Positions 2,676 to 35,564 of a DNA stretch of 64,000 bases are shown in pieces. Position 1 is the stretch's first letter; each line of letters opens with the position of its first letter. The stretch is taken from IMG/VR virus record IMGVR_UViG_3300028610_000968; one strand, given 5' to 3'. The position numbers and the translations under genes are program-made. The stretch is from a virus (Duplodnaviria; Heunggongvirae; Uroviricota; Caudoviricetes). Below the pieces are notes generated by a model. That model was given only the letters and a program-made list of their open reading frames with translations, did not search any database and was not told where the DNA came from.

Positions 2676-3140
2676 ATGAGCAAAAAAGTAAATAAAGAAA
2701 GAGAACATTCAGTAACAATAATAACCAAAACTTGTTCTGATGGAGACGTTTCTGTGGCTAACGTTGAAATGTCAATAATCAGTACTATTCCAAATAAACA
2801 AGGTTTTGTTGGTGATGCAAAAAGCTTATATGGAATATCATCAACTGGTAGAGCTGTTCGTGCTAAAGGAGACACACCGAACGCTGAACTTGGCGAGCAA
2901 ATTGCTTTAGCAAGAGCCTTGCATAATGTCTCAAGAAGATATGCTGAATCAATAAACGGTCTTATAAAACACCAAGACGATATACAAAGCCAGAGGAAAG
3001 AACAAAAAGACAACAAAGCTGGCAAAATTGAAGCGTATGAAAGGCGCAGAGATGAGAGCAAAGCTGCTAGAGTTGCTGCCAGGTTAGAAAACAAAACAAC
3101 GGAAAAAAAGAAAGAGACAGTCGAAGAGAACACAACATAA
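2676..3140 (+). CDS. hypothetical protein with Lys/Glu-rich C-terminus (154 aa)
   Basis: Strong RBS AGGAGGACTATCGCCATG. The C-terminal 60 aa are a highly charged K/E/R-rich predicted helix. Confidence 0.5.
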   Translation: MSKKVNKEREHSVTIITKTCSDGDVSVANVEMSIISTIPNKQGFVGDAKSLYGISSTGRAVRAKGDTPNAELGEQIALARALHNVSRRYAESINGLIKHQDDIQSQRKEQKDNKAGKIEAYERRRDESKAARVAARLENKTTEKKKETVEENTT

Positions 3141-3376
3141 TGGCAAACGCTGTGGTAAGAGAGAATATATACGAAGTTTTGTATATATTTACAATACCTA
3201 TAGATTTATATGAATTAATAAGCCGTAGGTATATAAGAGAATTTGCTAAATCTGGATTGACGTTTAATAAGTTTTATGAACATTTTGTAACTGACGTAGA
3301 AAAAAGAGTAATAATGTCTATAGAAGATGTGGGAGATAAGGAAAGATATAGAATAACATTTGAAAATGTAACCTAA
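3140..3376 (+). CDS. hypothetical protein (78 aa)
   Basis: ORF overlapping the previous stop (TAATGG). Confidence 0.35.
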   Translation: MANAVVRENIYEVLYIFTIPIDLYELISRRYIREFAKSGLTFNKFYEHFVTDVEKRVIMSIEDVGDKERYRITFENVT

Positions 3377-3573
3377 AATAAAATACACTGGAGCGCATTG
3401 CACGGACAGCAACTCCCGAAACAAGATGATGTACCATCACGAATTCAGCCTTAGCGCGACAACAATCAAGGATGTTGCTCCATTGTTACCTAGAAGCCTG
3501 TCAAATGCTTCCTGGTGGCTCCCCGACCGGGAGCTATCGGAAAGCACTTGAAAAGCAAATGAAAAGGAGTGTT

Positions 3574-3888
3574 ATGAGCGAAAAAGTAAAAATTAATGAG
3601 AATGTGTACTTACGAGTGTTTATGGTTGGAATAATTGTTTTATTATTCTTTTCTATCTGGAAAATACATACACTTGGAAATACTGTTGTCGCTTTAAAAA
3701 AGAGTGTTACTTCAAAGTCTACTCCAAAAATAATTGCGAACGAAAGCACTATAACTTTAATTAGAGAAGTAGTCATAGATGAAAAATTTGGTGGGGAGGA
3801 TGCTTTGGGAAGAAAAGAGTCCAAAACAGTGACTAAAGAGTTTGGTATACCAAGTGTGAATCCAATGCCCTCAGGAGACCCAAATTGA
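3574..3888 (+). CDS. small membrane protein (about 104 aa); start trimmed to ATG with RBS AAAAGGAG
   Basis: The ATG at 3574 is preceded by AAAGGAGTGTT. An N-terminal hydrophobic segment VFMVGIIVLLFFSIWKI is present. The track start at 3472 lies in a GC-rich untranslated-looking leader. Confidence 0.4.
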   Translation: MSEKVKINENVYLRVFMVGIIVLLFFSIWKIHTLGNTVVALKKSVTSKSTPKIIANESTITLIREVVIDEKFGGEDALGRKESKTVTKEFGIPSVNPMPSGDPN

Positions 3889-4442
3889 ATCCAATGGTTA
3901 TAAATATAGATACTACAGAGGAATGTGTCAGGGGAAGGTACGCTTCACCTCGTTTCCCTGGTTGTGTAGTTAACATCAATGATTTGCTACAGTGGAGTAG
4001 TGGTTATAATAGAGCAGTTCATGTAATAGATAGTCATTCTCCAGAAGATGTTGAATTTAAGGTGTGGGATAACCATGCTATGAAAGGTTCTCCTGCTGCA
4101 AGTCTTGTACCAGAGATAGCAGTTGATTATGAAAGAGATGAAGTTCTACACAAGAATTCTTTTTCTGCTTTTAATAACACAGGTTTGGATTATATTCTAA
4201 CTGAATACGCCGTAGACACATTAATTTTTACAGGAGCATTTTTAGACATTAGTATACGGCACAGTGTGATTGATGCTTTTTATCGTGGGTACGATACAGT
4301 AGTACCCTTCGACGCTGTTATGCTACATGCGTCAGATGAAGAAGTCGATGGTTCACTTGATATTGTAAATGAAATGAGAGTCATGTACGGTACTTTATTT
4401 GCTTTTACTGATGAAGTGTTGAGAATGGAAGTTAATAAATGA
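3885..4442 (+). CDS. isochorismatase-family hydrolase (nicotinamidase PncA-like?)
   Basis: Family motifs are present: N-terminal INID (Asp), K-N-S-F-S-A-F (Lys), and G-A-F-L-D-I-S at the position of the usual G-x-x-x-D-x-C-V motif. The usual catalytic Cys appears to be replaced by Ser. Confidence 0.5.
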   Translation: MNPMVINIDTTEECVRGRYASPRFPGCVVNINDLLQWSSGYNRAVHVIDSHSPEDVEFKVWDNHAMKGSPAASLVPEIAVDYERDEVLHKNSFSAFNNTGLDYILTEYAVDTLIFTGAFLDISIRHSVIDAFYRGYDTVVPFDAVMLHASDEEVDGSLDIVNEMRVMYGTLFAFTDEVLRMEVNK

Positions 4443-4948
4443 TGGAAAAACTATACAAAGTGTTTGTTTATGGTACTCTAAAAAGAGGTCATGGCAACCA
4501 CTATTTTTATTGCAAAGATGTTACACATGTGGAAGAAGGAAGTATTATCGGGAGAATTTATGATTTAGTACACGGTGCATTTCCTGGCATCCAGATTCCA
4601 CACCGTTCCATCATAGCGCATGGGACGAAAGACCATGAATTTGATGTTGAACTCCAAGAAACATTGACTGACCCGGAGTTTAATACATTTAATGACTATG
4701 GTGATGAATGGGGTAGAGTTTTTGGAGAAGTAATTACATTCAGAAATCCGTCATCTAGTTTTAATGATTTAGATAGATTGGAAGGATTTAGACCAGGCGT
4801 AAAAAATTGTTTGTACGAAAGAGCATTAGTTTTGACAGAATCTAATGGTAGTATTTTTCCTGTCTGGGCGTATCACATGAACAACAAAGACAATATGGAA
4901 GAACACGGAGCTAGAAGGATAGAAAGTGGAACCTGGAGAAAAAATTGA
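4439..4948 (+). CDS. gamma-glutamyl cyclotransferase-like (GGCT/AIG2 family) protein
   Basis: The N-terminal VFVYGTLKRG motif is the hallmark of GGCT/AIG2/BtrG-fold enzymes. Its start overlaps the previous gene (ATGA). Confidence 0.6.
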   Translation: MMEKLYKVFVYGTLKRGHGNHYFYCKDVTHVEEGSIIGRIYDLVHGAFPGIQIPHRSIIAHGTKDHEFDVELQETLTDPEFNTFNDYGDEWGRVFGEVITFRNPSSSFNDLDRLEGFRPGVKNCLYERALVLTESNGSIFPVWAYHMNNKDNMEEHGARRIESGTWRKN

Positions 4949-5073
4949 AAAAGTTTATATATGTGATATGCTTCCTTTTTGTGGGCAGACTCATTGTGAA
5001 ACCTTTTGGGGAAGCGATTGTATCCTTACTGTGGTGGGAAGAACAAAACACAAGTGCAAAGAAGTAAACAAGA

Positions 5074-5394
5074 GTGAGGTTGTTGATGCAAAATAAATTA
5101 AGACTTGAAAGACGCATTAGAACCGAAGATACAGGCAAAGGTGTAAAATTATTAAGAAATATTTCAATACATTTTGAGCCTACAAAACATTTAGATTTAA
5201 AAGTATCTAATCATGCAGGCATACCTAATTTTGTAATCGCTTCTTTGCATTACGAAGTAATTACTCACGTTATGGAAGCTCATGAATACGCTACATTGTG
5301 GGCTAAAGATGATAAGCACCTTGAAGATTTAGTAAGACAATATTTAAAAGAAGATTGGGTAATTATAGATAAGTATGGAGGTACTGAGCTATGA
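5074..5394 (+). CDS. hypothetical protein (106 aa)
   Basis: ORF overlapping the natV-like start by ATGA. Confidence 0.4.
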   Translation: MRLLMQNKLRLERRIRTEDTGKGVKLLRNISIHFEPTKHLDLKVSNHAGIPNFVIASLHYEVITHVMEAHEYATLWAKDDKHLEDLVRQYLKEDWVIIDKYGGTEL

Positions 5395-6344
5395 ACATGG
5401 AACCAGAAGAGGAACTCAGTGACATAGGTGTGATTGTGGGTAGATTCCAAACCCCTTATTTAACTGATGCACACAGAGACATGATGCACACTGTGCTAGG
5501 AAAAACTGGCAGATTGCTCATAATAGTGGGGGTAGCTCATACTAGAGTGACCATGAATAATCCTCTCAGTTACGAATCGCGGAGGCAAATGATATTTAAT
5601 GAGTTCCCAACCACGACAATAGCCTATATTAAAGATGTACCAGACAACGATGAATTGTGGTCAAGAAATCTAGACTCTATAATTAATGATTTCAGAGGCC
5701 CAAATCACAGTGTTATGTTGTATGGTGGTAGAGACAGTTTCATTGGCCGTTATCATGGTGGGTTTAATACACGCAAATTCTTAGAGAAGCCATGTCAATC
5801 TGCGACACAGTTGAGAAAAGAAACTGGTCTGCGTGAACTACCAACTGCTCATTTCAGAGCAGGTGTTACGTGGGCAGCTCAAAATAGATTTGCAACCTCT
5901 TATCAAACCGTGGATATTGCAGTTTTAAAAGATGAAGAACTGCTAATTGGTAGAAAAGAGAACGAAATAAAATGGAGATTTCCTGGAGGGTTTGTTGACC
6001 CGCAGAAAGATGATTCATTGGAAGCAGCTTGCAAACGAGAAGTCAATGAAGAGACATGTGCAGAAATAGATGATTTAAGATACGTTTGTAGTCTTAGAAT
6101 TAATGATGGTCGTTATAGTAGAGAAGAAGATAAAATAATGACCGCATTTTACACAGCCAAATATATCTTTGGTGATATACAACCAAGAGACGACTTAGAT
6201 GAACTGAAGTGGGTAAGATTTTTACCAAGTGGAAACACAGACATCCTGCCTGGTGATTTAATTCCCAGCCATGAAGACTTATTAAGGGAGTTAATACACC
6301 ATTGTAGAGAAAAAGGAATAAGTAAAGAAGAATTCACTGTTTAA
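5391..6344 (+). CDS. natV: bifunctional nicotinamide-mononucleotide adenylyltransferase / Nudix hydrolase (NadM/NatV-like)
   Basis: The N-terminus GVIVGRFQTPY...DAH is a nucleotidyltransferase (T/H)xGH-like motif. The C-terminal half carries the Nudix box GGFVDPQKDDSLEAACKREVNEETCAEI. It lies immediately upstream of nadV, as in the known phage NadV/NatV pairs. Confidence 0.7.
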   Translation: MNMEPEEELSDIGVIVGRFQTPYLTDAHRDMMHTVLGKTGRLLIIVGVAHTRVTMNNPLSYESRRQMIFNEFPTTTIAYIKDVPDNDELWSRNLDSIINDFRGPNHSVMLYGGRDSFIGRYHGGFNTRKFLEKPCQSATQLRKETGLRELPTAHFRAGVTWAAQNRFATSYQTVDIAVLKDEELLIGRKENEIKWRFPGGFVDPQKDDSLEAACKREVNEETCAEIDDLRYVCSLRINDGRYSREEDKIMTAFYTAKYIFGDIQPRDDLDELKWVRFLPSGNTDILPGDLIPSHEDLLRELIHHCREKGISKEEFTV

Positions 6345-6365
6345 TAATAAGGGAGAAAGGTAGAG

Positions 6366-7775
6366 TTGATGAGCAAAAAGAACATTATTTTAAGCACAGA
6401 CAGTTACAAAATTGGTGCTCACCACAATATGTATCCACCAGGCACACGAGGAATATACTCCTACCTGGAGGCGAGAAATACGGCAAGGTGGGATGAGACT
6501 GTTTTCTTTGGGTTACAATACATACTCAAGAACATGTTCTTAGGCCGAGTTGTGACCCAAGAAAAAATAGATGAAGCAGAAACATTGTGCTTGGCGCATC
6601 TAGGCCCAGGAGCCTTTAACAAAGCTGGGTGGGAGCACATACTCAATAAACACGACGGAAGATTGCCAGTAATGATAAAGGCAGTGCCGGAGGGCATGGT
6701 AGTTCCGAAAGATAATGTGATGCTCACCATACTAAACACTGACAAAGAGTGTGAGTGGCTAACATCATACTTGGAAACACTTTTGAGCCAAGTTTGGTAT
6801 CCAAGCACAGTGGCTACTCTCAGTCGTGAAGTCAAAAGAATTCTCAAAGCTTATTTGGGAATGACTTCAGACGATGTAAGTAGTCTACTCTTTAAGTTGC
6901 ATGACTTTGGAGCAAGGGGCGTAAGTACTATGAGTGGCGCTGAGATAGGTGGTCTTGCCCATCTAGTGAACTTTATGGGTACTGACACCCTGGCCGCGAT
7001 TGTGTGCGCTAGAGACTATTACAATGCCCCGCGTGACTTCAGCGATATTGCTTTCTCTGTACCAGCAACGGAGCATAGTATCATGACTAGTTACGGCAGA
7101 GAAGGAGAAATAAGGTTGTTGGGCGAAATATTAGCCAAATACCCTGCTGGAATCTTGAGCGTCGTGGGAGATTCTTACGACATTTACAGATTCGTAGACG
7201 AGTACATGGGCAAAATCTACAAAGAACAGATACTAAAACGTGATGGAGTATTCGTCGTTAGACCAGACAGTATATCTCCAGAGCATAGAACCCCTGGTGA
7301 GCAGGTACTTTGGATATTACAATCGCTTTACCATAATTTTGGAGGCGAAATAAACAGCAAAGGATACAAAGTTCTTAACCCGAAAGTAAGAGTTCTTTGG
7401 GGAGACGGACTAAGTATAGATTCAATCAGTGAGACATTAGCTTTTGTGGAACTAAACAAGTTCAGCACTGATAACATAGCTACATTTGGGATGGGTGGTG
7501 GCTTACTTCAAGACGTAAATCGAGACGTACAGCGGTTTGCTTTCAAGTGTTCTTCACAACTCAGAGATGGTACTTGGCATGATATTCGTAAACAACCAAG
7601 AGATGTGTACAAAGCGTCCAAAGCAGGAAGACTTAAATTAATCAAGGTTGGAGAAGAGTTCAAAACAGTCCTAATCTCAGAGGAAGGCGAAGACCTATTA
7701 GAAACCGTATTCGTTGATGGTCAATTGATACGTGATGAAAATTTTACCGACGTAAGAAAGAGAGCGGAACTTTAA
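6366..7775 (+). CDS. nadV: nicotinamide phosphoribosyltransferase (NAMPT / NadV)
   Basis: 469 aa with an N-terminus ILSTDSYKIGAHHNMYPPGT... typical of NAMPT. Size and overall pattern match. RBS GGGAGAAAGG. Confidence 0.8.
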   Translation: MMSKKNIILSTDSYKIGAHHNMYPPGTRGIYSYLEARNTARWDETVFFGLQYILKNMFLGRVVTQEKIDEAETLCLAHLGPGAFNKAGWEHILNKHDGRLPVMIKAVPEGMVVPKDNVMLTILNTDKECEWLTSYLETLLSQVWYPSTVATLSREVKRILKAYLGMTSDDVSSLLFKLHDFGARGVSTMSGAEIGGLAHLVNFMGTDTLAAIVCARDYYNAPRDFSDIAFSVPATEHSIMTSYGREGEIRLLGEILAKYPAGILSVVGDSYDIYRFVDEYMGKIYKEQILKRDGVFVVRPDSISPEHRTPGEQVLWILQSLYHNFGGEINSKGYKVLNPKVRVLWGDGLSIDSISETLAFVELNKFSTDNIATFGMGGGLLQDVNRDVQRFAFKCSSQLRDGTWHDIRKQPRDVYKASKAGRLKLIKVGEEFKTVLISEEGEDLLETVFVDGQLIRDENFTDVRKRAEL

Positions 7776-7776
7776 G

Positions 7777-8067
7777 ATGGGAAGGAGAGAAAAAAGCATG
7801 AGCAAAGATAAGAACGAACAACAGAACGAGAACAATGGAGAAAAGGTTGAACCAGCAGGCGCTGGAGCAGAGGAAGTCGTACAAGGGGAAACTGACAACG
7901 TTGATGTGCCTAAACTGGAGCTTGTTGAAGACGACAAGCAAGAAGAAGAGGAATTGGTGGTAGAAGAAAAGTCAGGAATTGGAGTCTGGACGGTCATAGG
8001 CTGTATCGTCGGCGGATTGGCTCTTGGTTTCCTCATTGGCAGCATACTAGTTTCATTGGGCTACTAG
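7777..8067 (+). CDS. acidic protein with C-terminal transmembrane anchor (96 aa)
   Basis: E/D-rich N-terminal 70 aa followed by GIGVWTVIGCIVGGLALGFLIGSILVSL. Confidence 0.4.
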   Translation: MGRREKSMSKDKNEQQNENNGEKVEPAGAGAEEVVQGETDNVDVPKLELVEDDKQEEEELVVEEKSGIGVWTVIGCIVGGLALGFLIGSILVSLGY

Positions 8068-8137
8068 CCCACACTCAATATACTCTATAGAGTATTGACT
8101 TTGATAGTAAGGTAAACAGGTAAAAGGAGTAACAAGC

Positions 8138-9088
8138 ATGGAGTTTTTAAAGTTTCTATTGTTTATGGTCACTCTAATTGGTTTGATTGGATGGATATGG
8201 AAGGGCATATCTTTCGACAGAACTGATTACGGTGATATCAGAGGGATTGCGAGTTTTCCAGTCTCTCGTACAGTAACAGGGCTGGTTGTATTGGTGGGAA
8301 TATTAGTATTCTTTTCTGCCATTCAGATCATGCCCGCAGGTCACAGAGGTGTTATTTACTCACAAAAATCTGGTGTAAAAAGCCGCATTTTGCAAGAGGG
8401 GTTCAACGTTGTAACCCCAGCGGTGGAGACAGTTCACGAGGTTTCGGTTCGAGTGAGAGAGCACACGGTCGTATTAGATGTCGAAAAGAATTCGGCGGCC
8501 TCCAAGGACACACAAGATGTTGGAGCGGTCGTCACAGTCAATTACCACTACGATGCTAAAAATGTCCATAGAATCTACAGGGATATTGGAGACGCAGATA
8601 CAGTTGCGAAAACCATCCTTGTGCCGAAAACTCAGGACGCAATCAAAAGAGCCACCGCAACATTCGAAGCCGAGGATATGATTGCTAACCGAGGGAAACT
8701 GGCCGAGTTGATCAAAACAACTCTATCCGACCGTCTCGCATCTTCATACTTGATCGTCGATGATATTTCGGTGCAGAATATCAGTTTCAAGAAGGACTTT
8801 ACCGCCGCCATCGAGAACAAAGTGAAGCAGAAACAATTGGCGAAGCAGGCAAAGCTCATAGTCGTGACAAAAGAGGCTGAAGCCGAACAGCTCATTGCAG
8901 AGGCAAGAGGCGTCAAAGAGTCTCGTATTCTCAAAGCTGAAGGTACTGCTAAAGCCAACGAACTACTGGAGCGCAGCTTAACTCCCGGAGTCTTACAACA
9001 ACGAGCCATTGATGTCTGGGATGGTAAGTTCCCCACGTACTACAGTGGCGGAGCGGGCGCACCGTTGCTGTTCAACATTCCTAAATAG
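8138..9088 (+). CDS. SPFH / band-7 (prohibitin/HflC-like) membrane protein
   Basis: N-terminal TM helix, then an SPFH core and a coiled-coil region (LAKQAKLIVVTKEAEAEQLIAEARGVKESRILKAEG). Confidence 0.7.
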   Translation: MEFLKFLLFMVTLIGLIGWIWKGISFDRTDYGDIRGIASFPVSRTVTGLVVLVGILVFFSAIQIMPAGHRGVIYSQKSGVKSRILQEGFNVVTPAVETVHEVSVRVREHTVVLDVEKNSAASKDTQDVGAVVTVNYHYDAKNVHRIYRDIGDADTVAKTILVPKTQDAIKRATATFEAEDMIANRGKLAELIKTTLSDRLASSYLIVDDISVQNISFKKDFTAAIENKVKQKQLAKQAKLIVVTKEAEAEQLIAEARGVKESRILKAEGTAKANELLERSLTPGVLQQRAIDVWDGKFPTYYSGGAGAPLLFNIPK

Positions 9089-9327
9089 TTTAGGTTTGCC
9101 AACCTGAACCACCTTTGTACGATAGCCCCTTGAGCCTTCATCGGCTCCTGGGGTGCTATGACAAGAAAGCGAATGAAAATAGAATTACTCACGGGAGTAG
9201 TGAGGTTAATCTTTGTGGCATGGTTTATATCTACACAGAAAGATTTTCCATTGTTTTTGCCAATAGGCATCACTATAATTTTCCTTGCGGGTATGAATTT
9301 TGAGAGAGTGGGTAGAGCTATTACAAA

Positions 9328-9702
9328 ATGAGTTGCACAGTAGAACATAAATACTTTATAGGTAATAAAGTTTGTAGAATTATCCGTAGAGGTATGGAGA
9401 TAAAATGCCCTTCCTGTGAAGGCGTTGGAGAAGTTGTGCTTCTGGATGGACAACTATACAAATGTCCTAAGTGTCTCGGCAGCAAAGTTATTGAAGCGCA
9501 ACCACAATGGATAGTTGAAGGAGTAGAAAGAACTGTAGATAAGATTGAAATTATTATATGCCCTAAACACACTTCCATTCAATATCACACAAGCATGTGT
9601 ACTCGGCACTACGAAATAGTAGATGAAAGACGTTTATTACCAACAAGAAAACTCGCACAAGAAAAATGTAAAAGGTGGAATTTAAAAGACAATGGCGAAT
9701 AA
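9328..9702 (+). CDS. small protein with DnaJ-type CxxCxGxG zinc-finger repeats
   Basis: Motifs CPSCEGVGEV and CPKCLGSKV. Confidence 0.45.
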   Translation: MSCTVEHKYFIGNKVCRIIRRGMEIKCPSCEGVGEVVLLDGQLYKCPKCLGSKVIEAQPQWIVEGVERTVDKIEIIICPKHTSIQYHTSMCTRHYEIVDERRLLPTRKLAQEKCKRWNLKDNGE

Positions 9703-13390: not shown

Positions 13391-13591
13391 ATGGTAACAA
13401 TGGATAATCTAAATATTCCAGAAGGAATAAAAAGAAGACTAAAGCTGGATGTACTGGCAGACTTTATTAGTCTTATTGAGTTTGAAGAAGATGAAGAATA
13501 CTACTACATTATTGCAGAGCCTTGGAATAGGAATTACAATATTATCAAAACTAGGATACCAAAGAAAAGGAAAATAAAATCAAATGAATAA
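13391..13591 (+). CDS. hypothetical protein (66 aa)
   Basis: ORF track entry. Confidence 0.35.
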   Translation: MVTMDNLNIPEGIKRRLKLDVLADFISLIEFEEDEEYYYIIAEPWNRNYNIIKTRIPKKRKIKSNE

Positions 13592-14105
13592 AGTAGCTAT
13601 ATACCCAGGTAGTTTCGACCCTATCACATTTGGGCATCTTGATATAATTGAACGCTCTACACATATGTTTGATAAAGTAATTGTTGGTATAGTTGCTAAC
13701 CCAAACAAAGAGCCTTCTTTCACAGTAAGCACACGCAGGCTTATGATAGAGAATGCGGTACACGATTTAAAAACAGGTCTGCACTACCAAAAGATAATAG
13801 TAGAAGTGAAAGCTTTTAGTGGCTTGTTAGTTGATTTTGTTAAACAACAGAAAGCAACAACCATAATAAAGGGTCTAAGAGCCATAACAGACTTTGAGTA
13901 TGAATTCCAGATGGCCCACCTTAACAAGCAGCTTGATGAATCGGTGGAGACAGTCTTCATGATGTCTGACCCCAAATATACATTCTTGAGTTCGAGCGCG
14001 GTCAAAGAGATAGTAATACTTGGTGGAGACGTATCATCTTTAGTACCAAGAACAACGAAAGAATGGCTAAAGAACAGATTCCCGGAAAAGAGAAGAAACA
14101 TATGA
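13584..14105 (+). CDS. coaD: phosphopantetheine adenylyltransferase (CoaD/PPAT)
   Basis: The N-terminus VAIYPGSFDPITFGHLDIIERS carries the classic PPAT (T/H)xGH motif. Size is 173 aa. Confidence 0.85.
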   Translation: MNKVAIYPGSFDPITFGHLDIIERSTHMFDKVIVGIVANPNKEPSFTVSTRRLMIENAVHDLKTGLHYQKIIVEVKAFSGLLVDFVKQQKATTIIKGLRAITDFEYEFQMAHLNKQLDESVETVFMMSDPKYTFLSSSAVKEIVILGGDVSSLVPRTTKEWLKNRFPEKRRNI

Positions 14106-14428
14106 TTATATATCTAATGTTATTGGTTCACCTGTTGTATGATTTCCATTGGCAGGGAGTATTTATAGGAGAATACAAAAGTAAATATCCATTTATAATG
14201 TTTGTACATTCTTTTACTTGGGCATTGATTGTTTATTTACCATTGTTGTATTTTACTGGTATCTTTGCTCCTATATTATTTTCATTTCTTATTTTCTCTC
14301 ACTACGTGATAGATACCTGGAAATGTAATGAATTAAAAAAGGGAAAGAAGATGTGGCTTGTGTATGTAGACCAAGTTCTTCATTTGGTCTCAATATTAAT
14401 AGTTTGGTACGTCGGAATAAATCTTTAA
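14102..14428 (+). CDS. membrane protein (about 108 aa)
   Basis: Start trimmed to the ATG at 14102, which overlaps the coaD stop. Three TM helices. Confidence 0.4.
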   Translation: MIIYLMLLVHLLYDFHWQGVFIGEYKSKYPFIMFVHSFTWALIVYLPLLYFTGIFAPILFSFLIFSHYVIDTWKCNELKKGKKMWLVYVDQVLHLVSILIVWYVGINL

Positions 14429-31390: not shown

Positions 31391-31474
31391 GGGCGAGTGG
31401 TGGAACTGGTATACACAACGGACTTAAAATCCGTCGCCTTAACCGGATTGGGGGTTCGAATCCCCCCTTGCCTA
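31391..31474 (+). tRNA. tRNA-Leu(TAA): tRNA-Leu (anticodon TAA), type II with a long variable arm
   Basis: Hand-folded. Acceptor GGGCGAG/CTTGCCT has two G-U pairs. Anticodon stem ACGGA/TCCGT with loop CTTAAAA. Variable arm of 16 nt. T-arm GGGGG-TTCGAAT-CCCCC. Confidence 0.6.
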
Positions 31475-31843
31475 CTGTCTCTGCAAACTGAAGAGCTGAC
31501 GAGCCTGAGAGAGAACTGCGGCTGTTCACCGTGACTCACTAGGGTTGCAGAGACTATGACATTATATTATATTGGAGGTGATAACTTATGCTATTTAACA
31601 GTACTAGTGTACTCTGGGTGTGTGAAGCAAGGACAACAGCAGAACCAAAACCGCACGTTCATCTTGATCGACTGAAGTATGCGGCAGAGTTTGCCCCGTA
31701 GCCGTGGCTGGCAACATGGAGATTAACATTATACCGTTAGATTAACAAAACAACTTACAGGAAATGATTTAAAGGTTTAACGGAGTGCCTGGACTGGTGA
31801 CCGGGTGCTCCCTCAAATCTTTAATGGAAGAGAGGTGATATTT

Positions 31844-32350
31844 ATGATTCAACATGGTATGAAAGTAAGGGACAATTTATCTGGATTTGAAGGAACAGTC
31901 ACAGCTATAAGTGATTGGGCTTTTGGCTGCATCCGCATCAAAGTAGAGCCAAACAGACTTGACGAAAAGGGTGCTCCAATTCAAAATCAAGTCTTTGATG
32001 AACAACGATTGGACATTATTGATGATAAGGGAGCGATTGTACCCGACATTGATGCAGACCCACCAATTGAGATGGGGTGGGAGGTAAAAGATTCCATAAC
32101 TGGGTTCAAAGGAATCGTTGTGTGCAGGACTACACATATCTCAGGTCTAGTCATAGTCCAAGTGGCAGCTGAGAAGATGAAAGAAGGCAAGCCAGTTGAG
32201 GAACAAGCCTTTGAAGAAAGGCGCTTAGTGAAAATCGAGGCCAAGAAAGTCAAGCACAGTAAAGATGCTATCAACAGGGAGAAGGATGCCCCGCAAGGCG
32301 ACCAGGTGGCAGCGGGGAGTAGCGTTCTCAATACGGGGAGTACCGTATAA
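31844..32350 (+). CDS. hypothetical protein with two tandem small beta-domain repeats (about 168 aa)
   Basis: ATG after AGAGAGGTGATATTT. The internal duplication is G-x-K-V-x-D-x-x-S/T-G-F-x-G-x-V at residues about 5-35 and about 80-110. Confidence 0.45.
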   Translation: MIQHGMKVRDNLSGFEGTVTAISDWAFGCIRIKVEPNRLDEKGAPIQNQVFDEQRLDIIDDKGAIVPDIDADPPIEMGWEVKDSITGFKGIVVCRTTHISGLVIVQVAAEKMKEGKPVEEQAFEERRLVKIEAKKVKHSKDAINREKDAPQGDQVAAGSSVLNTGSTV

Positions 32351-32421
32351 AGTTTTAAGGGCTATTGGCTCAACGGACAGAGCGCCGGGTTACGAACCCG
32401 GAGACTACAGGTTCAAATCCT
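32349..32421 (+). tRNA. tRNA-Arg(ACG): tRNA-Arg (anticodon ACG)
   Basis: Clean cloverleaf. Acceptor GGGCTAT/ATAGTCC, D-stem GCTC/GAGC, anticodon stem CCGGG/CCCGG with loop TTACGAA, T-arm ACAGG-TTCAAAT-CCTGT. Confidence 0.75.
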
Positions 32422-32437
32422 GTATAGTCCTCTATGA

Positions 32438-32506
32438 TATACTCTTGGTGTAGTGGATTGCACGGTTATCTCTGGTATGGAGATGATAAGTCTGGGTTCG
32501 ACTCCC
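32438..32506 (+). other. tRNA-like element with a canonical T-arm (CTGGG-TTCGACT-CCCGG) and a 5-bp stem ATCTC/GAGAT, but no resolvable acceptor stem; possible tRNA remnant or structured RNA
   Basis: GGTTCGACTCCC is a textbook T-arm. I could not pair the 5' and 3' ends into a 7-bp acceptor stem, and the candidate anticodon loop TGGTATG lacks U33. Confidence 0.25.
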
Positions 32507-32601
32507 GGAGGGTAAACTATGGATAGAGATAGAATAACATATAAGAAATTTAAACATGAGATGCGTTCTTTTTGGATATTTCTTTCGGTTCTTTTTAGTT
32601 C

Positions 32602-32886
32602 ATGGATTATTATGTGTGCTGTTGGTATGCACTTTGGACTCATCGGGAGGTTGTATTAACTATGGCAAATATTGATGATTTAATAAAAGCTATTGAAAAA
32701 GAATTATCAAGATATGATAGTTTTACTTTTGGCATTGAACGTAATATTCATGGTCGCTGGGCGGCGGAAGCTGATTATTACAATATCAAACAGATAAGAA
32801 CTGGTGAATGGTGTCATAAAGAAACAGAGTGGGTTGGCAGTTATGAAAAAGCTCTATCTAACCTACTTAAAGCTATAAGTAGATAA
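32602..32886 (+). CDS. hypothetical protein (94 aa)
   Basis: ORF track entry. Confidence 0.4.
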   Translation: MDYYVCCWYALWTHREVVLTMANIDDLIKAIEKELSRYDSFTFGIERNIHGRWAAEADYYNIKQIRTGEWCHKETEWVGSYEKALSNLLKAISR

Positions 32887-33062
32887 TTAAGGGAAGTGTA
32901 TAATGAGTGAGCTCGAAGACTTTTTAGTTGGTAAATCAGATGATAAAAAACCTTATAAATTATGTGATTGGCAGTGTGCTGTGCAATGGATTATTATCCT
33001 AGCAGTAATTGGCTACATTGTTGTGAGTTTTGTTATAAATAATCCTTAAAAAGAGGTGAAGT

Positions 33063-33326
33063 ATGTCAGAATATAGATTTATCTCAGACCCAGGACACGG
33101 GTGGCTCGCAGTACCATATCACGAGCTGCTCATGTTGAATATAGTTAATAAAATCTCAGAACATAGCCACAGAGATGGAAACGACATTTATCTTGAAGAA
33201 GATGTAGATGCCTTATGCTTTGTGGATGCTTGGGAACAAGCAAATAAGAAAAAGATTAAACTAATTGAGGTAACTCTATTACAAGAAGCAGATATAAGAA
33301 AAATGAATTCCTTCAAACTGATTTAA
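33063..33326 (+). CDS. hypothetical protein (87 aa)
   Basis: RBS AAAGAGGTGAAGTATG. Confidence 0.45.
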   Translation: MSEYRFISDPGHGWLAVPYHELLMLNIVNKISEHSHRDGNDIYLEEDVDALCFVDAWEQANKKKIKLIEVTLLQEADIRKMNSFKLI

Positions 33327-33335
33327 CAAAGGGGT

Positions 33336-33695
33336 ATGATGAGTAGTATTCATGACAAACTAACAGCAGCAAATATCACAGATAAAGTGCACCTGGGGAC
33401 AGCAAAAATATTAGATTGTATTCGTTGTCTAAAAGGAGAGGAACTCAACTGCGGCGTACCACCTGGAGATTGTGGTGATAATTTACCAGCAGCTCTGTGG
33501 GAAGCTATAAAAAAAGAAACTCAAGACCCCACTATAAACATTAAATGTACTTGTGCCGAGCCAATGATAGAACTTCACAGTGAAGTATCATTTAAGGGCA
33601 AACAGAGAATAACTTTGTCTATTTTTCAATGTGACTCTTGTGGAGATACGAATGAAGTAACGATTATAAGAGAGGAGGAAACGAATGGCGAATGA
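33336..33695 (+). CDS. hypothetical Cys-rich protein (119 aa)
   Basis: CIRC...C, C.C and CDSCG. Confidence 0.45.
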   Translation: MMSSIHDKLTAANITDKVHLGTAKILDCIRCLKGEELNCGVPPGDCGDNLPAALWEAIKKETQDPTINIKCTCAEPMIELHSEVSFKGKQRITLSIFQCDSCGDTNEVTIIREEETNGE

Positions 33696-33960
33696 TGATG
33701 ACGAATCAACTAATAATAGGGTAACTTTTTTGGTGTGGGTAGCAACGGGAGTAGCAATAATTGCTTGTTTTATCGCTTCTCTTGCTGTAGGAAGAACTGC
33801 CGTAATGCAAGGACAAATAGATGCTCTACACAAAGCTGCGCTTGACAACATAGGTAAAGACATCGAACATGTCCAAAGTGATGTAGACATACTAAAGATA
33901 ATAAAGCACTATCATCCGACAACAGGTAAACCAAAACAACCGGCGAAAATCGTACAATAG
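33685..33960 (+). CDS. membrane-anchored protein (91 aa)
   Basis: N-terminal TM helix. RBS GAGGAGGAAACGAATG. Confidence 0.45.
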   Translation: MANDDDESTNNRVTFLVWVATGVAIIACFIASLAVGRTAVMQGQIDALHKAALDNIGKDIEHVQSDVDILKIIKHYHPTTGKPKQPAKIVQ

Positions 33961-34060
33961 AGGAGTGAGGAAGTATGAGGTCTAAAATGGACGCAAAGAA
34001 GATCAAGCCCTGCCGCGTTTGGTTAAATTTTATATTGGATAAACTAACGTCGAGATTTAA

Positions 34061-34252
34061 ATGAAGTCTAAAATGGAGGAAAAGCGTAAAGGTGGTAAAA
34101 TAATATCAGGAGCACTGCTCATGAGTTCTGGTGCAGGTTATACTGCATGTATCTTTATGCTGGGGGTAAGTCCCGCATGGGCTTTTGTAGATGTTATATT
34201 TGCGACAATGGCGTTGTTGGGAGGGATTGCACTATCGCCTAACGTTGACTAA
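34061..34252 (+). CDS. small membrane protein (63 aa)
   Basis: Two TM helices. Confidence 0.35.
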   Translation: MKSKMEEKRKGGKIISGALLMSSGAGYTACIFMLGVSPAWAFVDVIFATMALLGGIALSPNVD

Positions 34253-34258
34253 ATATCG

Positions 34259-34331
34259 GGGTAGGTAACTCAGAGGCCAGAGTAGTGGACTTTTAATCCA
34301 TTCGCCGAGGGTTCGACTCCCTCTCTACCCA
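34259..34331 (+). tRNA. tRNA-Lys(TTT): tRNA-Lys (anticodon TTT)
   Basis: Acceptor GGGTAGG/TCTACCC, D-stem ACTC/GAGT, anticodon stem GTGGA/TCCAT with loop CTTTTAA, T-arm GAGGG-TTCGACT-CCCTC. Confidence 0.75.
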
Positions 34332-34333
34332 CT

Positions 34334-34570
34334 ATGCAAGAAAAAAATATATGTATAGATATAAAATGTGAACACTGTAAGGGAGAAGGCAGAGTTCTCG
34401 TTGACGACGAATGGGATAAATATTGGGAACACTTTGGAGAATTACCACCACCAAGTAATCAGTTATACAAAGGTGGTAGAGTGTGGGAAGAATGTGTAAT
34501 CTGTAGAGGAGAGCGCACAGTGGAAATAAAAGTTGGTATAAAATATGAGATAAGAATAAAGGAGGACTAA
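34334..34570 (+). CDS. DnaJ-type CxxCxGxG zinc-finger protein (78 aa)
   Basis: CEHCKGEGRV and CVICRGERTV. Confidence 0.5.
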   Translation: MQEKNICIDIKCEHCKGEGRVLVDDEWDKYWEHFGELPPPSNQLYKGGRVWEECVICRGERTVEIKVGIKYEIRIKED

Positions 34571-34573
34571 ACA

Positions 34574-34774
34574 ATGGCAGGTAATAAAAAAACAAAAGTC
34601 TACTACTTAAATGGAGACCCAGGTGCAGATTTTAGGGCTGTTAGAGATGATGAAGGCTGTCTAGCAATATTTCTGGATACTGGTGATTCTCTGATAGCAA
34701 GTAATCCATTTTCAAGGAATGAAGCCCTTGGTTTAATTGACTTTTTACAAAATCATCTACCGGAACCAGATTAG
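34574..34774 (+). CDS. hypothetical protein (66 aa)
   Basis: RBS AAGGAGGACTAAACAATG. Confidence 0.4.
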   Translation: MAGNKKTKVYYLNGDPGADFRAVRDDEGCLAIFLDTGDSLIASNPFSRNEALGLIDFLQNHLPEPD

Positions 34775-35047
34775 ATGGGAGCAGCTTGGGTGATATTAAA
34801 TATACTTGATGGTGGTCTAACATACTGGGCTATCACAAGTGGACAGGCTGTGGAGGGTAATCCTGTCTTGAATAGAGCCTGGCAATATGGATGGTTGCCG
34901 TTCTTTGCACTCAAGTTCACATCAGCCGCTATTGTACTTGGTGTGTATCGCTCATACAGAGCACACAGGAAGATAAGATATGCTATGGTTTTTGGTAATA
35001 TATTAATTGGAGCTGTAGTGGTGTATGAGATATTAAACTTAATATGA
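34775..35047 (+). CDS. membrane protein (90 aa)
   Basis: Three TM helices. Confidence 0.4.
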   Translation: MGAAWVILNILDGGLTYWAITSGQAVEGNPVLNRAWQYGWLPFFALKFTSAAIVLGVYRSYRAHRKIRYAMVFGNILIGAVVVYEILNLI

Positions 35048-35059
35048 GAGGAGAAAACA

Positions 35060-35233
35060 ATGACTTTAAGAGATGCTTTGTTTTTACTGTCTGGAACTAA
35101 CTACGGCGTGTCATTAGTTTTAGGAGTATCTGCGCTGAGGTTTGGTTCAGATGGCGTTGATGTGTACATAATTTTATTTAACGTTTTCTTTGGAACACTA
35201 AATCTTCTTGGTGCTTTGGGGAGAACAAGATAA
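35060..35233 (+). CDS. small membrane protein (57 aa), absent from the ORF track
   Basis: RBS GAGAGGAGAAAACAATG. It is the first of a run of tiny hydrophobic ORFs spanning 35.06-36.13 kb. Confidence 0.35.
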   Translation: MTLRDALFLLSGTNYGVSLVLGVSALRFGSDGVDVYIILFNVFFGTLNLLGALGRTR

Positions 35234-35488
35234 CGCTATGGAGTTTTGGTTATTGACAAGTGCAGTTGTGATTCTTATGATATTTATTTTAATCGCAGCG
35301 TGCCTATATATTAGGGAGGTGTAACATGTTTAAGAAAATAGTTCTTACCATAATATTATTACTTGCACTTGAGATGGCTCTTACTGGCGTGATAATTCTT
35401 AGTGCAACAGGTAATCCTTTGGCATTTATAGTGTGCTTTGGGATTGCACTACTTATGACTTATGGAGTAATTACTGCTATATAAAAAT

Positions 35489-35564
35489 AAGGGGAGTTAG
35501 CTCAACTTGGTATAGAGCCGCAGACTCATAATCTGTTGGTTGGGGGTTCGAGTCCCTCACTCCC
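35489..35564 (+). tRNA. tRNA-Met(CAT): tRNA-Met (anticodon CAT; initiator, elongator or Ile-lysidine type not resolved)
   Basis: Acceptor GGGGAGT/ACTCCCC, D-stem GCTC/GAGC, anticodon stem GCAGA/TCTGT with loop CTCATAA, T-arm GGGGG-TTCGAGT-CCCTC. Confidence 0.7.

What the first reader, a model, noticed from the sequence alone, without database searches (positions are those of the whole stretch)
3885..7775. NAD+ salvage/reconstitution module (NadV plus NMNAT-Nudix, with isochorismatase-like and GGCT-like neighbours)
nadV (NAMPT) plus a bifunctional NMNAT/Nudix enzyme make NAD+ from nicotinamide (plus PRPP and ATP). From established knowledge of KVP40 NadV/NatV, and as I recall from the recently described phage NAD+ reconstitution pathway NARP2, this pair counters NAD+-depleting defences such as Thoeris, DSR, SIR2-HerA and SEFIR. 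Here the pair sits with an isochorismatase-family (PncA-like) hydrolase, whose canonical catalytic Cys appears replaced by Ser, and a GGCT/AIG2-fold enzyme. Those two neighbours are not part of the described pathway and may extend or regulate it.
Basis: partly seen in the sequence, partly recalled or inferred. Interest (0 to 1): 0.55.

Follow-up and report, generated by a model that had tools for sequence, protein, structure and literature searches.

The report
Phage NAD+ rebuilding gene pair (NARP2-type)
An uncultured large phage carries the already-known two-gene kit (Nampt plus NMN adenylyltransferase/Nudix) for rebuilding NAD+ from nicotinamide. The two extra enzymes beside it are add-ons found only in this phage lineage, and one is an odd nicotinamidase look-alike whose catalytic cysteine is a serine.

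Summary
Window 3885-7775 encodes, on the + strand and tightly packed:
- an isochorismatase-family protein;
- a GGACT/AIG2-fold protein;
- a possible 56-aa ORF;
- a 102-aa ORFan;
- an NMNAT-Nudix fusion;
- a bona fide Nampt (NadV).

The last two form a NARP2-type NAD+ reconstitution pair. NadV keeps every catalytic residue and sits with Nampt, not with NARP1 Namat. The NMNAT-Nudix belongs to a divergent subfamily found mainly in large and huge phages. NadV lies within 8 kb of that subfamily's gene in 78 of 85 loci.

The "extended module" idea is mostly unsupported. Across 165 comparison loci there were no relatives of the window's isochorismatase-type protein and only two weak GGCT hits. The GGCT-like protein belongs to a subfamily of bacterial mobile elements and defence islands, usually coupled to a class-II glutamine amidotransferase. 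A homologue of that amidotransferase lies 37 kb away in this window.

The isochorismatase-like protein is nicotinamidase-like. Its Asp, Lys, Asp/His/His/Glu metal ligands and cis-peptide Gly are intact, but Cys->Ser is confirmed (1 of 148 homologues shares it). It appears to be under purifying selection.

A different, Cys-bearing PncA-like gene sits next to the same NMNAT-Nudix subfamily in another phage lineage. This hints at a real link to nicotinamide.

Overall this is a new member of a known kind, with one modest curiosity.

The parts
3894..4442 (+). The nucleophile Cys is replaced by Ser.
   Evidence: - Pfam PF00857, E 2.2e-24.
- Best PDB match by sequence is 3eef, E 1.3e-23.
- AF2 model pLDDT 94.3.
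- Foldseek ranks 3eef, then 3hb7, then nicotinamidases SpNic and BsPncA.
- D9, K90, D49, H51, E57, H64 and G117 are kept. F14->C and C123->S differ from homologues.
- The nearest non-self homologue is 38% identical and lies in a cellular context.
4251..4253 (+). AGT codon for Ser123 (Ser120 from ATG 3894), at the position of the catalytic Cys. It is one base away from TGT.
   Evidence: - Sequence read; alignment to 3eef DICVRH against DISIRH.
- The column is Cys in 127 of 148 homologues and Ser in 1.
- Ser is also present in the E80K strain variant P0001.
4439..4948 (+). GGACT/AIG2-fold (gamma-glutamyl cyclotransferase-like) protein, 169 aa, of a long subfamily with an insertion of about 50 aa. 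Its start overlaps the isochorismatase-like stop by 4 nt.
   Evidence: - Pfam PF06094, E 6.3e-17.
- YGTLKRG and LDRLEGFRP motifs are invariant in 39 homologues.
- AF2 model pLDDT 88.8.
- Foldseek matches YkqA 2qik, mouse GGACT 1vkb and At5g39720 2g0q.
- Homologues lie in bacterial mobile elements, with GATase_6 directly upstream in 3 of 5 distinct contexts.
4926..5096 (+). Possible small Cys-rich ORF (56 aa from GTG 4926). Uncertain.
   Evidence: - Listed.
- Called as a gene in the Logan assembly but not in the ENA assembly.
- Its reading frame is conserved in the 90%-identical relative L105, but the internal ATG is not.
5086..5394 (+). 102-aa ORFan. GAGG lies 7 nt upstream of the ATG at 5086. 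Its stop overlaps the NMNAT-Nudix start (ATGA).
   Evidence: - Sequence read.
- No Pfam, PHROG or PADLOC hit.
- The only database match is itself.
- No homologue in 165 related loci.
5391..6344 (+). Bifunctional NMN adenylyltransferase (N-terminal, about residues 9-160) plus Nudix hydrolase (about residues 165-300). It is a NadM-Nudix/NatV-like protein of a compact divergent subfamily.
   Evidence: - NUDIX PF00293, E 3.1e-11.
- NCBIfam PRK05379 models, E 4.5e-17 but 62 bits against a 449-bit cut-off.
- PDB 2qjt (F. tularensis NadM-Nudix) matches both halves.
- Motifs GRFQTPYL-TDAH, SATQLR and REVNEE.
- The subfamily is seen in 5 phage records of 309-642 kb and 80 IMG/VR loci.
6369..7775 (+). 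Nicotinamide phosphoribosyltransferase (NadV/Nampt), 468 aa from ATG 6369.
   Evidence: - NCBIfam NF006629, 535.6 bits against a cut-off of 405.
- PHROG 448, E 1.4e-146.
- PDB: Xcc Nampt 7yqo 399 bits and human NAMPT about 387 bits, against 241 and 221 bits for the lowest-scoring entries 9w5x and 9ke8, also deposited as nicotinamide phosphoribosyltransferase and not identified further here.
- The Nampt catalytic residues and a Nampt-type, non-aromatic segment FGMGGGLLQDVNRD are present.

Best explanation
Genes 5391-6344 and 6369-7775 form a NARP2-type (KVP40 NadV/NatV-like) NAD+ reconstitution pair in an uncultured phage of at least 129 kb.

Proposed mechanism:
- NadV condenses nicotinamide with PRPP to give NMN.
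- The N-terminal domain of the fusion protein adenylylates NMN with ATP to give NAD+.
- Its C-terminal Nudix domain most likely cleaves ADP-ribose to AMP and ribose-5-phosphate. The host Prs can turn ribose-5-phosphate back into PRPP.

Expressed during infection, the pair would refill the NAD+ pool. It would thereby blunt NAD+-depleting defences such as TIR or SIR2 effectors.

What is shown here: the sequence-level enzyme assignments and the conserved synteny. What is inferred from KVP40 and NadM-Nudix: the chemistry and the anti-defence role.

The four upstream genes are co-directional and translationally coupled. However, they are specific to this phage lineage and are not part of the conserved module.
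- The isochorismatase-like protein is a nicotinamidase-type metal-site protein with Ser in place of the nucleophile Cys. It most likely binds nicotinamide or a related pyridine carboxamide and turns it over slowly or not at all.
- The GGCT-like protein belongs to a gamma-glutamyl-(amine) cyclotransferase subfamily of mobile elements. Its usual partner is a class-II glutamine amidotransferase, not an NAD enzyme.
For: NadV:
- It passes the curated NCBIfam cut-off.
- It scores far higher against characterised Nampt structures than against the lowest-scoring entries 9w5x and 9ke8, whose identity I did not establish.
- It keeps the DSYK Tyr, KLHDFGxRG, GTDT (Asp219 equivalent), the catalytic His in ATEHS, RPDS, GDG and GGG-LLQ-x-x-RD.
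- It lacks the aromatic selectivity-clamp residues that define Namat (PMC12774641).

NMNAT-Nudix:
- Both halves align to F. tularensis NadM-Nudix 2qjt.
- The motifs (H/T)xxH = TDAH, ISxTxxR = SATQLR and the Nudix core REVNEE are present. They are conserved in the subfamily.

Synteny:
- In 85 loci of this NMNAT-Nudix subfamily, NadV lies within 8 kb in 78. It is immediately downstream on the same strand in 38.
- An NMNAT is found in 59 of 80 independent NadV loci.

Other points:
- No Prs/Adps-like gene was found in the 64-kb window.

Neighbours are not conserved:
- No relative of the window-type isochorismatase-like protein was found in 165 loci.
- Only two weak GGCT hits were found.
- Only 6 weak isochorismatase-type tblastn hits occur in 50,697 phage records.

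Isochorismatase-like active site: read against the nicotinamidase definition in PMC3581539. C->S variants are used to trap unreacted substrate: SpNic C136S in 3O94 and BiuH C169S in 6xjm.

Purifying selection: omega is about 0.07 over the last 33 codons of the isochorismatase-like gene and 0.34 over the GGCT-like gene, measured against a 90%-identical relative.

GGCT contexts. The window's GATase_6 homologue is.
Against: - No enzyme activity or phenotype has been measured for this phage.
- The NMNAT half scores far below the NCBIfam equivalog cut-offs and was missed by Pfam CTP_transf_like. Its first motif carries a 2-residue insertion and Thr/Ala in place of His/Gly.
- The Nudix box has non-canonical spacing upstream of REx2EE.
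- Only 64 kb of a genome of at least 129 kb was searched for Adps.
- Tight operon-like packing (4-nt overlaps, no predicted + strand terminator between 2500 and 9180) is compatible with co-expression of the neighbours with the pair. A functional link therefore cannot be excluded.
- A Ser nucleophile could still be catalytically competent.
Confidence: 0.75

Rival explanations
1. Extended module. The isochorismatase-like protein, and perhaps the GGCT-like protein, work together with NadV and NMNAT-Nudix. For example, a Ser-type nicotinamidase-like protein could bind, buffer or slowly deamidate the nicotinamide released by NADase effectors. That would hand it to NadV or feed the host PncB route.
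For: - The genes are co-directional with 4-nt overlaps, and no + strand terminator is predicted inside the cluster.
- The protein has a full nicotinamidase-type metal site (D49, H51, E57, H64), together with Asp9, Lys90 and the cis-peptide Gly.
- The gene is under purifying selection.
- Isochorismatase-family genes are very rare in phages. Even so, a second, unrelated PncA-like gene lies 0.5-1 kb downstream of the same NMNAT-Nudix subfamily in loci L035-L037 and L040.
- The isochorismatase-GGCT junction is kept in a 90%-identical relative.
Against: - No relative of the window-type protein, and only two weak GGCT hits, occur near NadV or NMNAT in 165 loci.
- An active nicotinamidase would compete with NadV for nicotinamide.
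- The nucleophile is missing and two pocket residues are changed (F14C, Y93F).
- Relatives of the GGCT-like protein are linked to GATase_6, SNF2 helicases and RM or defence islands, never to NAD genes.
- The other PncA-like loci lack NadV within 8 kb. The same PncA-like gene is not adjacent to NAD genes in three huge phages.
Confidence: 0.2
2. General metabolic booster rather than counter-defence. The pair raises NAD+ to support phage replication and nucleotide metabolism in any host. This was the original proposal for KVP40, and it requires no specific selection by NAD+-depleting immunity.
For: - NARP2 raised NAD+ even in cells without a defence system.
- The window carries many other metabolic genes: NrdD, CoaD/PPAT, GATase and COOH-NH2 ligase.
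- The pair is widespread in large and huge phages, which carry many auxiliary metabolic genes.
Against: - The two roles are not exclusive.
- The KVP40 pair abolished type I Thoeris and DSR2 defence when co-expressed.
- Nothing in this window distinguishes the two roles.
Confidence: 0.3
3. NARP1-like chemistry. The NadV homologue is a Namat that ligates nicotinamide to ADPR-PP made by an Adps encoded elsewhere in the genome.
For: - Namat and Nampt are homologous and share the catalytic core.
- Only half of the contig was searched for Adps.
Against: - The protein scores 399 bits against Xcc Nampt, compared with 221-241 bits for the lowest-scoring PDB entries, whose identity was not established.
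- The clamp positions are Gly and Asp, not aromatic.
- The gene is adjacent to an NMNAT, which NARP1 does not need.
- No phage was found to encode both pathways.
- No Prs-like ORF is present in the window.
Confidence: 0.03
4. The isochorismatase-like gene is a recently captured cellular gene that was inactivated by a single TGT->AGT change. It is a functionless passenger on its way to decay.
For: - The change needs a single nucleotide.
- The gene has no orthologue outside this lineage, and its nearest relative is cellular.
- Several near-invariant active-site positions are altered.
Against: - The reading frame is intact.
- Ser is retained in a strain variant.
- Six synonymous against 2 non-synonymous changes occur in the last 33 codons relative to a 90% relative, giving omega of about 0.07.
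- All four metal ligands, Asp and Lys are retained.
- The AF2 model is highly confident.
Confidence: 0.12

Closest known systems
NARP2 (Vibrio phage KVP40 NadV Nampt plus NatV Nmnat/Nudix; Osterman et al. preprint 10.1101/2024.02.11.579819)
   Same: - It has the same two enzyme families, Nampt and an NMNAT-Nudix fusion, placed side by side in a large phage genome.
- The Nampt catalytic residues are intact and no Adps was found nearby.
- In the preprint, 94% of phages with the KVP40-type Nampt also encode an Nmnat.
   Different: - NadV is below 50% identical to any catalogued phage NadV.
- The NMNAT-Nudix is only about 24-25% identical to classical phage NatV-like proteins.
- It lacks the linker of roughly 30-40 aa between the two domains.
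- Its first motif has a 2-residue insertion and reads TDAH.
- Activity and anti-defence effect are untested here.
NadM-Nudix bifunctional NMNAT/ADP-ribose pyrophosphatase (Francisella tularensis, PDB 2qjt; NCBIfam PRK05379 models)
   Same: - The domain order is the same, and both halves align.
- The GRFQ...H and SxTxxR motifs and the REx2EE Nudix core are present.
   Different: - It scores 62 bits against equivalog cut-offs of 354-449 bits.
- It belongs to a separate compact subfamily found in large and huge phages: Tunturi_5, LR756500, LR756502, LR756504, LR745206 and 80 IMG/VR contigs.
Nicotinamidase PncA/Pnc1 and the 3eef (Ta0454) branch of the isochorismatase superfamily
   Same: - The fold matches 3eef with TM 0.85-0.90 and nicotinamidases with TM about 0.8.
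- Asp, Lys, the Asp/His/His/Glu metal ligands and the Gly preceding the cis-peptide are all in place.
   Different: - The nucleophile Cys is Ser.
- The pocket residue Phe is Cys, Tyr is Phe and Thr is Ser.
- The NCBIfam PncA model gives 22.5 bits against a cut-off of 174.
- The gene is phage-encoded and lies next to a Nampt, whose substrate a true nicotinamidase would destroy.
GGACT/AIG2-like gamma-glutamylamine cyclotransferases (mouse GGACT 1vkb, B. subtilis YkqA 2qik; PHROG 2520)
   Same: - The fold matches, and the YGTL and catalytic Glu (LDRLEG) motifs are present.
   Different: - It has a conserved insertion of about 50 aa.
- TM scores are only about 0.5.
- It has no detectable tblastn relative in 50,697 phage records.
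- Its relatives lie in bacterial integrative elements and defence islands, often as a DUF5049-GATase_6-GGACT trio.

Membership tests
NARP2 (phage Nampt + Nmnat NAD+ reconstitution pathway) | A Nampt-clade, not Namat-clade, nicotinamide phosphoribosyltransferase | tested here: met
   - NF006629 gives 535.6 bits against a cut-off of 405.
- Xcc Nampt scores 399 bits and human NAMPT 387 bits, against 241 and 221 bits for the lowest-scoring PDB entries, whose identity was not established.
- The clamp positions are non-aromatic.
NARP2 (phage Nampt + Nmnat NAD+ reconstitution pathway) | An Nmnat homologue encoded in the same phage genome | tested here: met
   - The NMNAT-Nudix gene ends 24 nt upstream of NadV.
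- The same adjacency is seen in 38 of 85 subfamily loci, and NadV lies within 8 kb in 78 of 85.
NARP2 (phage Nampt + Nmnat NAD+ reconstitution pathway) | No Adps (PRPS-like ADPR pyrophosphokinase) in the genome | tested here: inconclusive
   - None was found among window ORFs of 200 aa or more scanned with Pfam or PHROGs.
- tblastn with a phage Prs-like protein against the 64-kb window found nothing.
- Three ORFs of 265-322 aa were covered only by tblastn.
- The rest of the contig of at least 129 kb was not searched.
NARP2 (phage Nampt + Nmnat NAD+ reconstitution pathway) | Makes NAD+ from nicotinamide, PRPP and ATP, and rescues phage from NAD+-depleting defence | not testable with these tools
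   This needs enzyme assays and infection assays. In the preprint only type I Thoeris and DSR2 were tested for NARP2.
NadM-Nudix / NatV bifunctional NMNAT | Nucleotidyltransferase (H/T)xGH motif and ISxTxxR motif | tested here: met
   - The first motif reads GRFQTPYL-TDAH. The subfamily pattern is (H/T)-(D/E)-(G/A/V)-H with a 2-aa insertion.
- The second motif, SATQLR, is present.
NadM-Nudix / NatV bifunctional NMNAT | Curated equivalog score (NCBIfam PRK05379 models) | tested here: not met
   The best score is 62 bits against a cut-off of 449. Pfam CTP_transf_like is not reported at E<=0.01. The protein is a distant subfamily, not an equivalog.
NadM-Nudix / NatV bifunctional NMNAT | Nudix box Gx5Ex7REUxEExGU | tested here: inconclusive
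   - The core REVNEE is present, and PF00293 hits at E 3.1e-11.
- The upstream spacing is 2 residues longer, and the final Gly is Cys.
- The annotated Synechococcus phage B3 protein has the same spacing.
Nicotinamidase (PncA/Pnc1) | Catalytic triad Asp-Lys-Cys | tested here: not met
   Asp9 and Lys90 are present, but the Cys position is Ser123. The triad definition is from PMC3581539.
Nicotinamidase (PncA/Pnc1) | Metal-binding motif (one Asp, two His, fourth ligand Glu) and a Gly preceding the cis-peptide bond | tested here: met
   D49, H51, H64, E57 and G117 are conserved.
Nicotinamidase (PncA/Pnc1) | Curated family score (NCBIfam NF008623 PncA) | tested here: not met
   The score is 22.5 bits against a cut-off of 174.
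Isochorismatase superfamily (PF00857) | Pfam gathering score and fold | tested here: met
   - The Pfam score is 86.9 bits against a cut-off of 27.
- The AF2 model has pLDDT 94.
- Foldseek matches 3eef at E 2.3e-18 with TM 0.85/0.90.
GGACT/AIG2-like (PF06094) | Pfam gathering score, YGTL motif, catalytic Glu and fold | tested here: met
   - The Pfam score is 62.7 bits against a cut-off of 22.8.
- Y11, G12, T13, L14 and E115 are invariant in 39 homologues.
- Foldseek matches 2qik, 1vkb and 2g0q.

The most novel reading that the evidence does not exclude
The Ser-for-Cys, metal-site-intact nicotinamidase-like protein is a phage-adapted nicotinamide-handling factor. It could be a non-hydrolysing binder or a slow Ser-hydrolase, and it would cooperate with the Nampt/NMNAT pair.

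More broadly, nicotinamidase-superfamily proteins may be a recurring accessory of phage NAD+ reconstitution that has not been described. Phages have acquired them independently at least twice next to the same NMNAT-Nudix subfamily. One case is the Ser variant next to NadV in this window. The other is a Cys-bearing PncA-like gene in loci L035-L037 and L040 that have no NadV nearby. The second case could mark a nicotinate-route variant of NAD+ rebuilding.
Probability: 0.15. Interest if true: 0.6.

Novelty: new member of a known kind. Interest (0 to 1): 0.3.

Why it matters
The finding adds a divergent lineage to the known set of phage NAD+ reconstitution pathways. That lineage is an uncultured phage whose NMNAT-Nudix belongs to a compact subfamily seen mainly in large and huge phages. 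Within this subfamily the Nampt-NMNAT linkage is very stable (78 of 85 loci).

The finding also corrects an attractive but unsupported idea that the two neighbouring enzymes extend the pathway.

The one point worth an experiment is the nicotinamidase look-alike with a serine nucleophile. If it binds nicotinamide without destroying it, it would be a natural counterpart of the laboratory C->S trapping mutants. It would also be a new kind of accessory to counter-defence metabolism.

Tried and rejected
Searches that found nothing or little:
- Megablast of window 3400-8100 against 50,697 phage records gave no match.
- Scans of IMG/VR for close relatives of the isochorismatase-like protein and of the NMNAT-Nudix with single-protein patterns found nothing. 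An alignment-based scan for the NMNAT-Nudix then worked.
- A JGI metagenome scan with the isochorismatase-like protein found nothing.
- A word-indexed protein search for the isochorismatase-like protein found only its own cluster.
- P0001 is not on record in the contig index.
- The 102-aa ORF has no homologue.
- PADLOC gave no defence-system hits for the isochorismatase-like protein, the GGCT-like protein, the ORFan, NadV, the mobile-element trio or the window's GATase and ligase. The only hit was a weak generic Nudix match.
- Rfam found no riboswitch or other RNA element in 3000-9500.
- The promoter scan gave no more sites than shuffled sequence.
- Literature searches for a phage GGCT anti-defence role or a phage nicotinamidase role in NAD+ depletion returned nothing relevant.

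Ideas considered and rejected:
- The 173-aa CTP_transf_like ORF at 13584-14105 is not a second NMNAT. It carries the GSFDPITxGH signature of PPAT/CoaD (the motif assignment is from my own knowledge).
- NadV is not a NARP1 Namat.
- The NMNAT motif is not degenerate. The whole subfamily shares the insertion and an (H/T)xxH motif.

Full report
**What is there**

Window 3472-9088 is a run of co-directional, tightly packed + strand genes:
- a small membrane ORF ending at 3888;
- an isochorismatase-family gene (TTG 3885, or more likely ATG 3894, to 4442);
- a GGACT/AIG2-like gene (4439-4948), whose start overlaps the previous stop by 4 nt;
- a possible 56-aa Cys-rich ORF (4926-5096);
- a 102-aa ORFan (5086-5394), whose stop overlaps the next start;
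- an NMNAT-Nudix fusion (5391-6344);
- NadV (ATG 6369 to 7775);
- a small membrane ORF, then an SPFH/Band-7 protein (8138-9088).

No + strand terminator-like site is predicted between 2500 and about 9180. Promoter-like sites are no more frequent than in shuffled sequence. No Rfam element lies in the region.

The window is phage DNA. It also encodes a family-A DNA polymerase, a sliding-clamp-like protein, a UvsX-like recombinase, a helicase, NrdD and five tRNAs. It is 100% identical to a 129-kb ENA metagenome contig and to a Logan contig. It has no close relative among 50,697 catalogued phage records.

**NadV is a true Nampt**

- It exceeds the curated NCBIfam cut-off: 535.6 bits against 405.
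- Its best solved relatives are Xanthomonas Nampt (399 bits) and mammalian NAMPT (about 387 bits). The lowest-scoring entries in that search (9w5x, 9w5w, 9ke8) reach only 221-241 bits. They are also deposited as nicotinamide phosphoribosyltransferase. I suspect they are phage Namat structures, but the output does not say so.
- The alignment shows the substrate and catalytic residues of NAMPT in place: the DSYK tyrosine, KLHDFGxRG, GTDT (the Asp that selects nicotinamide over nicotinate; residue role from my own knowledge), the catalytic His in ATEHS, and RPDS.
- The segment that forms the adenine "selectivity clamp" in Namat reads FGMGGGLLQDVNRD. This is Nampt-like and lacks the aromatic residues described for Namat (PMC12774641).

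**The fusion protein is a distant but credible NadM-Nudix/NatV relative**

- Both halves align to F. tularensis NadM-Nudix, 2qjt.
- Scores are far below the NCBIfam equivalog cut-offs, and Pfam CTP_transf_like is not reported.
- I first suspected a degenerate active site, because the motif reads GRFQTPYLTDAH instead of GRFQPxHxxH.
- Alignment with its closest relatives shows that the whole subfamily carries the same 2-residue insertion and an (H/T)-(D/E)-(G/A/V)-H motif. The relatives are Tunturiibacter phage Tunturi_5 and four uncultured phages of 462-642 kb.
- The second motif (SxTxxR, here SATQLR) and the Nudix core REVNEE are conserved.
- The subfamily also lacks the linker of roughly 30-40 residues found in classical NadM-Nudix proteins.

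**Synteny of the pair**

- An alignment-based scan of IMG/VR returned 80 more loci of this subfamily.
- Across 85 loci, NadV lies within 8 kb in 78. It is directly downstream on the same strand in 38.
- In 80 independent NadV loci from metagenomes, an NMNAT is present in 59.
- No Prs/Adps-like gene is detectable in the window.

The pair therefore meets the sequence-level definition of NARP2: a KVP40-type Nampt plus an Nmnat, not associated with Adps.

The chemistry is inferred from KVP40 and NadM-Nudix. Nicotinamide plus PRPP gives NMN, NMN plus ATP gives NAD+, and the Nudix domain cleaves ADP-ribose.

In the preprint NARP2 was tested only against type I Thoeris and DSR2.

**The isochorismatase-like neighbour**

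- The Cys->Ser replacement is real. Codon AGT at 4251-4253 aligns with the nucleophile Cys of 3eef, 3hb7 and S. mutans nicotinamidase.
- An exhaustive HMMER search of 1.84 billion representatives found no relative closer than 38% identity apart from its own cluster. The closest relative sits in a cellular PadR/ABC-transporter context.
- Among 148 homologues the column is Cys 127 times, Gly 9, Asp 4 and Ser once.
- The protein keeps Asp9, Lys90, the Gly preceding the cis-peptide and all four metal ligands of nicotinamidases: D49, H51, H64 and the Glu-type fourth ligand E57 (definition in PMC3581539).
- The segment carrying those ligands aligns only with the 3eef, 3hb7 and nicotinamidase branch. 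It does not align with CSHase, RutB or biuret hydrolase.
- The AF2 model is confident (pLDDT 94.3). Its closest structures are 3eef, 3hb7 and then nicotinamidases.
- Other near-invariant pocket positions are also changed: Phe14->Cys, Tyr93->Phe and Thr127->Ser.
- Laboratory C->S variants of this superfamily are used to trap unreacted substrate: SpNic C136S with nicotinamide in 3O94 and BiuH C169S with biuret in 6xjm.
- The gene does not look like a decaying pseudogene. A strain variant (E80K) keeps the Ser.
- A 90%-identical relative from the same sample shows 6 synonymous against 2 non-synonymous changes in the last 33 codons, giving omega of about 0.07. This is a small sample.

My best reading is a nicotinamide-type ligand binder with little or no turnover. 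I hold this with low confidence. A working Ser nucleophile or a different substrate cannot be excluded.

**Is the isochorismatase-like gene part of the module?**

- Comparative evidence says it is not a conserved part. No relative of the window-type protein occurs in the 85 subfamily loci or in the 80 NadV loci.
- Only 6 weak tblastn hits occur in 50,697 phage records.
- There is one intriguing exception. Four IMG/VR loci lack NadV within 8 kb: L035-L037, which gave identical search hits, and the related L040. They carry a different PncA-like gene 0.5-1 kb downstream of the NMNAT-Nudix, flanked by extra Nudix genes.
- That gene is 270 aa, bears the Cys, has WPPHC and SHCV motifs, and its best PDB match is yeast Pnc1.
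- The PncA-like family is also rare in phages (5 records). In three huge phages it is not adjacent to NAD genes.
- Two independent captures of nicotinamidase-superfamily genes beside the same NMNAT-Nudix subfamily suggest a link to pyridine metabolism. They do not prove one.

**The GGCT-like neighbour**

- The fold and catalytic motifs (YGTLKRG, LDRLEGFRP) are intact. The gene is under moderate purifying selection, with omega 0.34.
- It has no tblastn relative in catalogued phages.
- Its relatives, at about 40% identity, lie in bacterial integrative elements and defence islands. There they sit next to SNF2/NOV_C helicases, HTH_17, type I RM, Wadjet, AbiEii or prophage head-tail genes.
- In 3 of 5 distinct contexts a class-II GATase_6 gene lies directly upstream, in two of them with overlapping stop and start. 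It is often preceded by DUF5049.
- The window itself encodes a homologue of that GATase_6 (41672-42925; 26% identity, E 2e-23). It lies next to a phiEco32-type COOH-NH2 ligase, 37 kb from the GGCT-like gene.
- Guilt by association therefore points to gamma-glutamyl/amide chemistry with the amidotransferase, not to NAD+.
- Only two weak GGCT hits occur in 165 NadV/NMNAT loci.

**Verdict**

The pair is a new, divergent member of a known kind.

The "extended module" idea is unsupported for the GGCT-like gene. For the isochorismatase-like gene it is only weakly suggestive.

The serine-for-cysteine nicotinamidase look-alike is a modest curiosity that a simple binding and activity assay could settle.

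Noticed in passing
window 39601-44511: This stretch holds a Ku-like protein (39601-40275), a phiEco32-type COOH-NH2 ligase (40291-41355), a class-II GATase_6 protein (41672-42925) and a 528-aa protein with no hits. The GATase_6 is homologous (26% identity, E 2e-23) to the GATase_6 found directly upstream of GGACT homologues in bacterial mobile elements. It may therefore be the real partner of the GGCT-like gene at 4439-4948.
   Followed up: partly
L007 4689-6543; L010 988-2928; L100 4441-5528: A recurrent gene set occurs in bacterial integrative elements and defence islands: DUF5049, GATase_6 and GGACT in L007 and L010, and GATase_6 with GGACT in L100. It lies next to type I RM, SNF2/NOV_C helicases, AbiEii and HTH_17. 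It has no PADLOC match and its function is unknown.
   Followed up: partly
L035 7358-10227 (L036 and L037 gave identical search hits); L040 4433-7137: In L035 the gene order is Nudix, NMNAT-Nudix, Nudix, then a Cys-bearing PncA-like nicotinamidase. L040 has the NMNAT-Nudix followed, after one unidentified ORF, by the same PncA-like gene. No NadV lies within 8 kb in any of these loci. This could be a nicotinamidase-based variant of phage NAD+ metabolism. Whole contigs were not checked for NadV, PncB or NadE.
   Followed up: partly
window 13584-14428: A phage-encoded phosphopantetheine adenylyltransferase (CoaD-like; GSFDPITFGH motif, Pfam CTP_transf_like in the public gene call) is followed by a DUF3307 membrane protein.
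   Followed up: no
window 31391-35567: The window carries five tRNA genes (Leu-TAA, Arg-ACG, Thr-GGT, Lys-TTT, Met-CAT). Rfam confirms four of them.
   Followed up: no
window ~47000-48300: Gene orientation and GC skew switch at this point, from + strand genes to - strand genes. The - strand block encodes a UvsX-like recombinase, DNA polymerase, an exonuclease, a clamp-like protein and NrdD.
   Followed up: no
L105 1-675 (aligns to window 4339-5013): A second phage strain, 90% identical at the nucleotide level, is present in the same ENA sample. It keeps the overlap between the isochorismatase-like and GGCT-like genes and the reading frame of the small Cys-rich ORF. The contig is too short to show the Ser position.
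   Followed up: yes
window 8138-9088; L135 9696-10640; L070 2506-3393: An SPFH/Band-7 protein lies two genes downstream of NadV. Homologues also appear near NadV or NMNAT in a few other loci (1 of 85 and 3 of 80). That is too few to call a linkage.
   Followed up: partly
L020-L099 and L001-L005, within 5 kb of the NMNAT-Nudix gene: Several accessory families recur near the pair in related phages. They are a family of about 156 aa with an unassigned fold (16 loci), a PPK2-like protein (8 loci), a metallophosphatase-like protein (6 loci) and a Prs-like ribose-phosphate pyrophosphokinase (6 loci). Family labels come from motifs I recognised, not from HMM searches. None has a homologue in this window.
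   Followed up: partly
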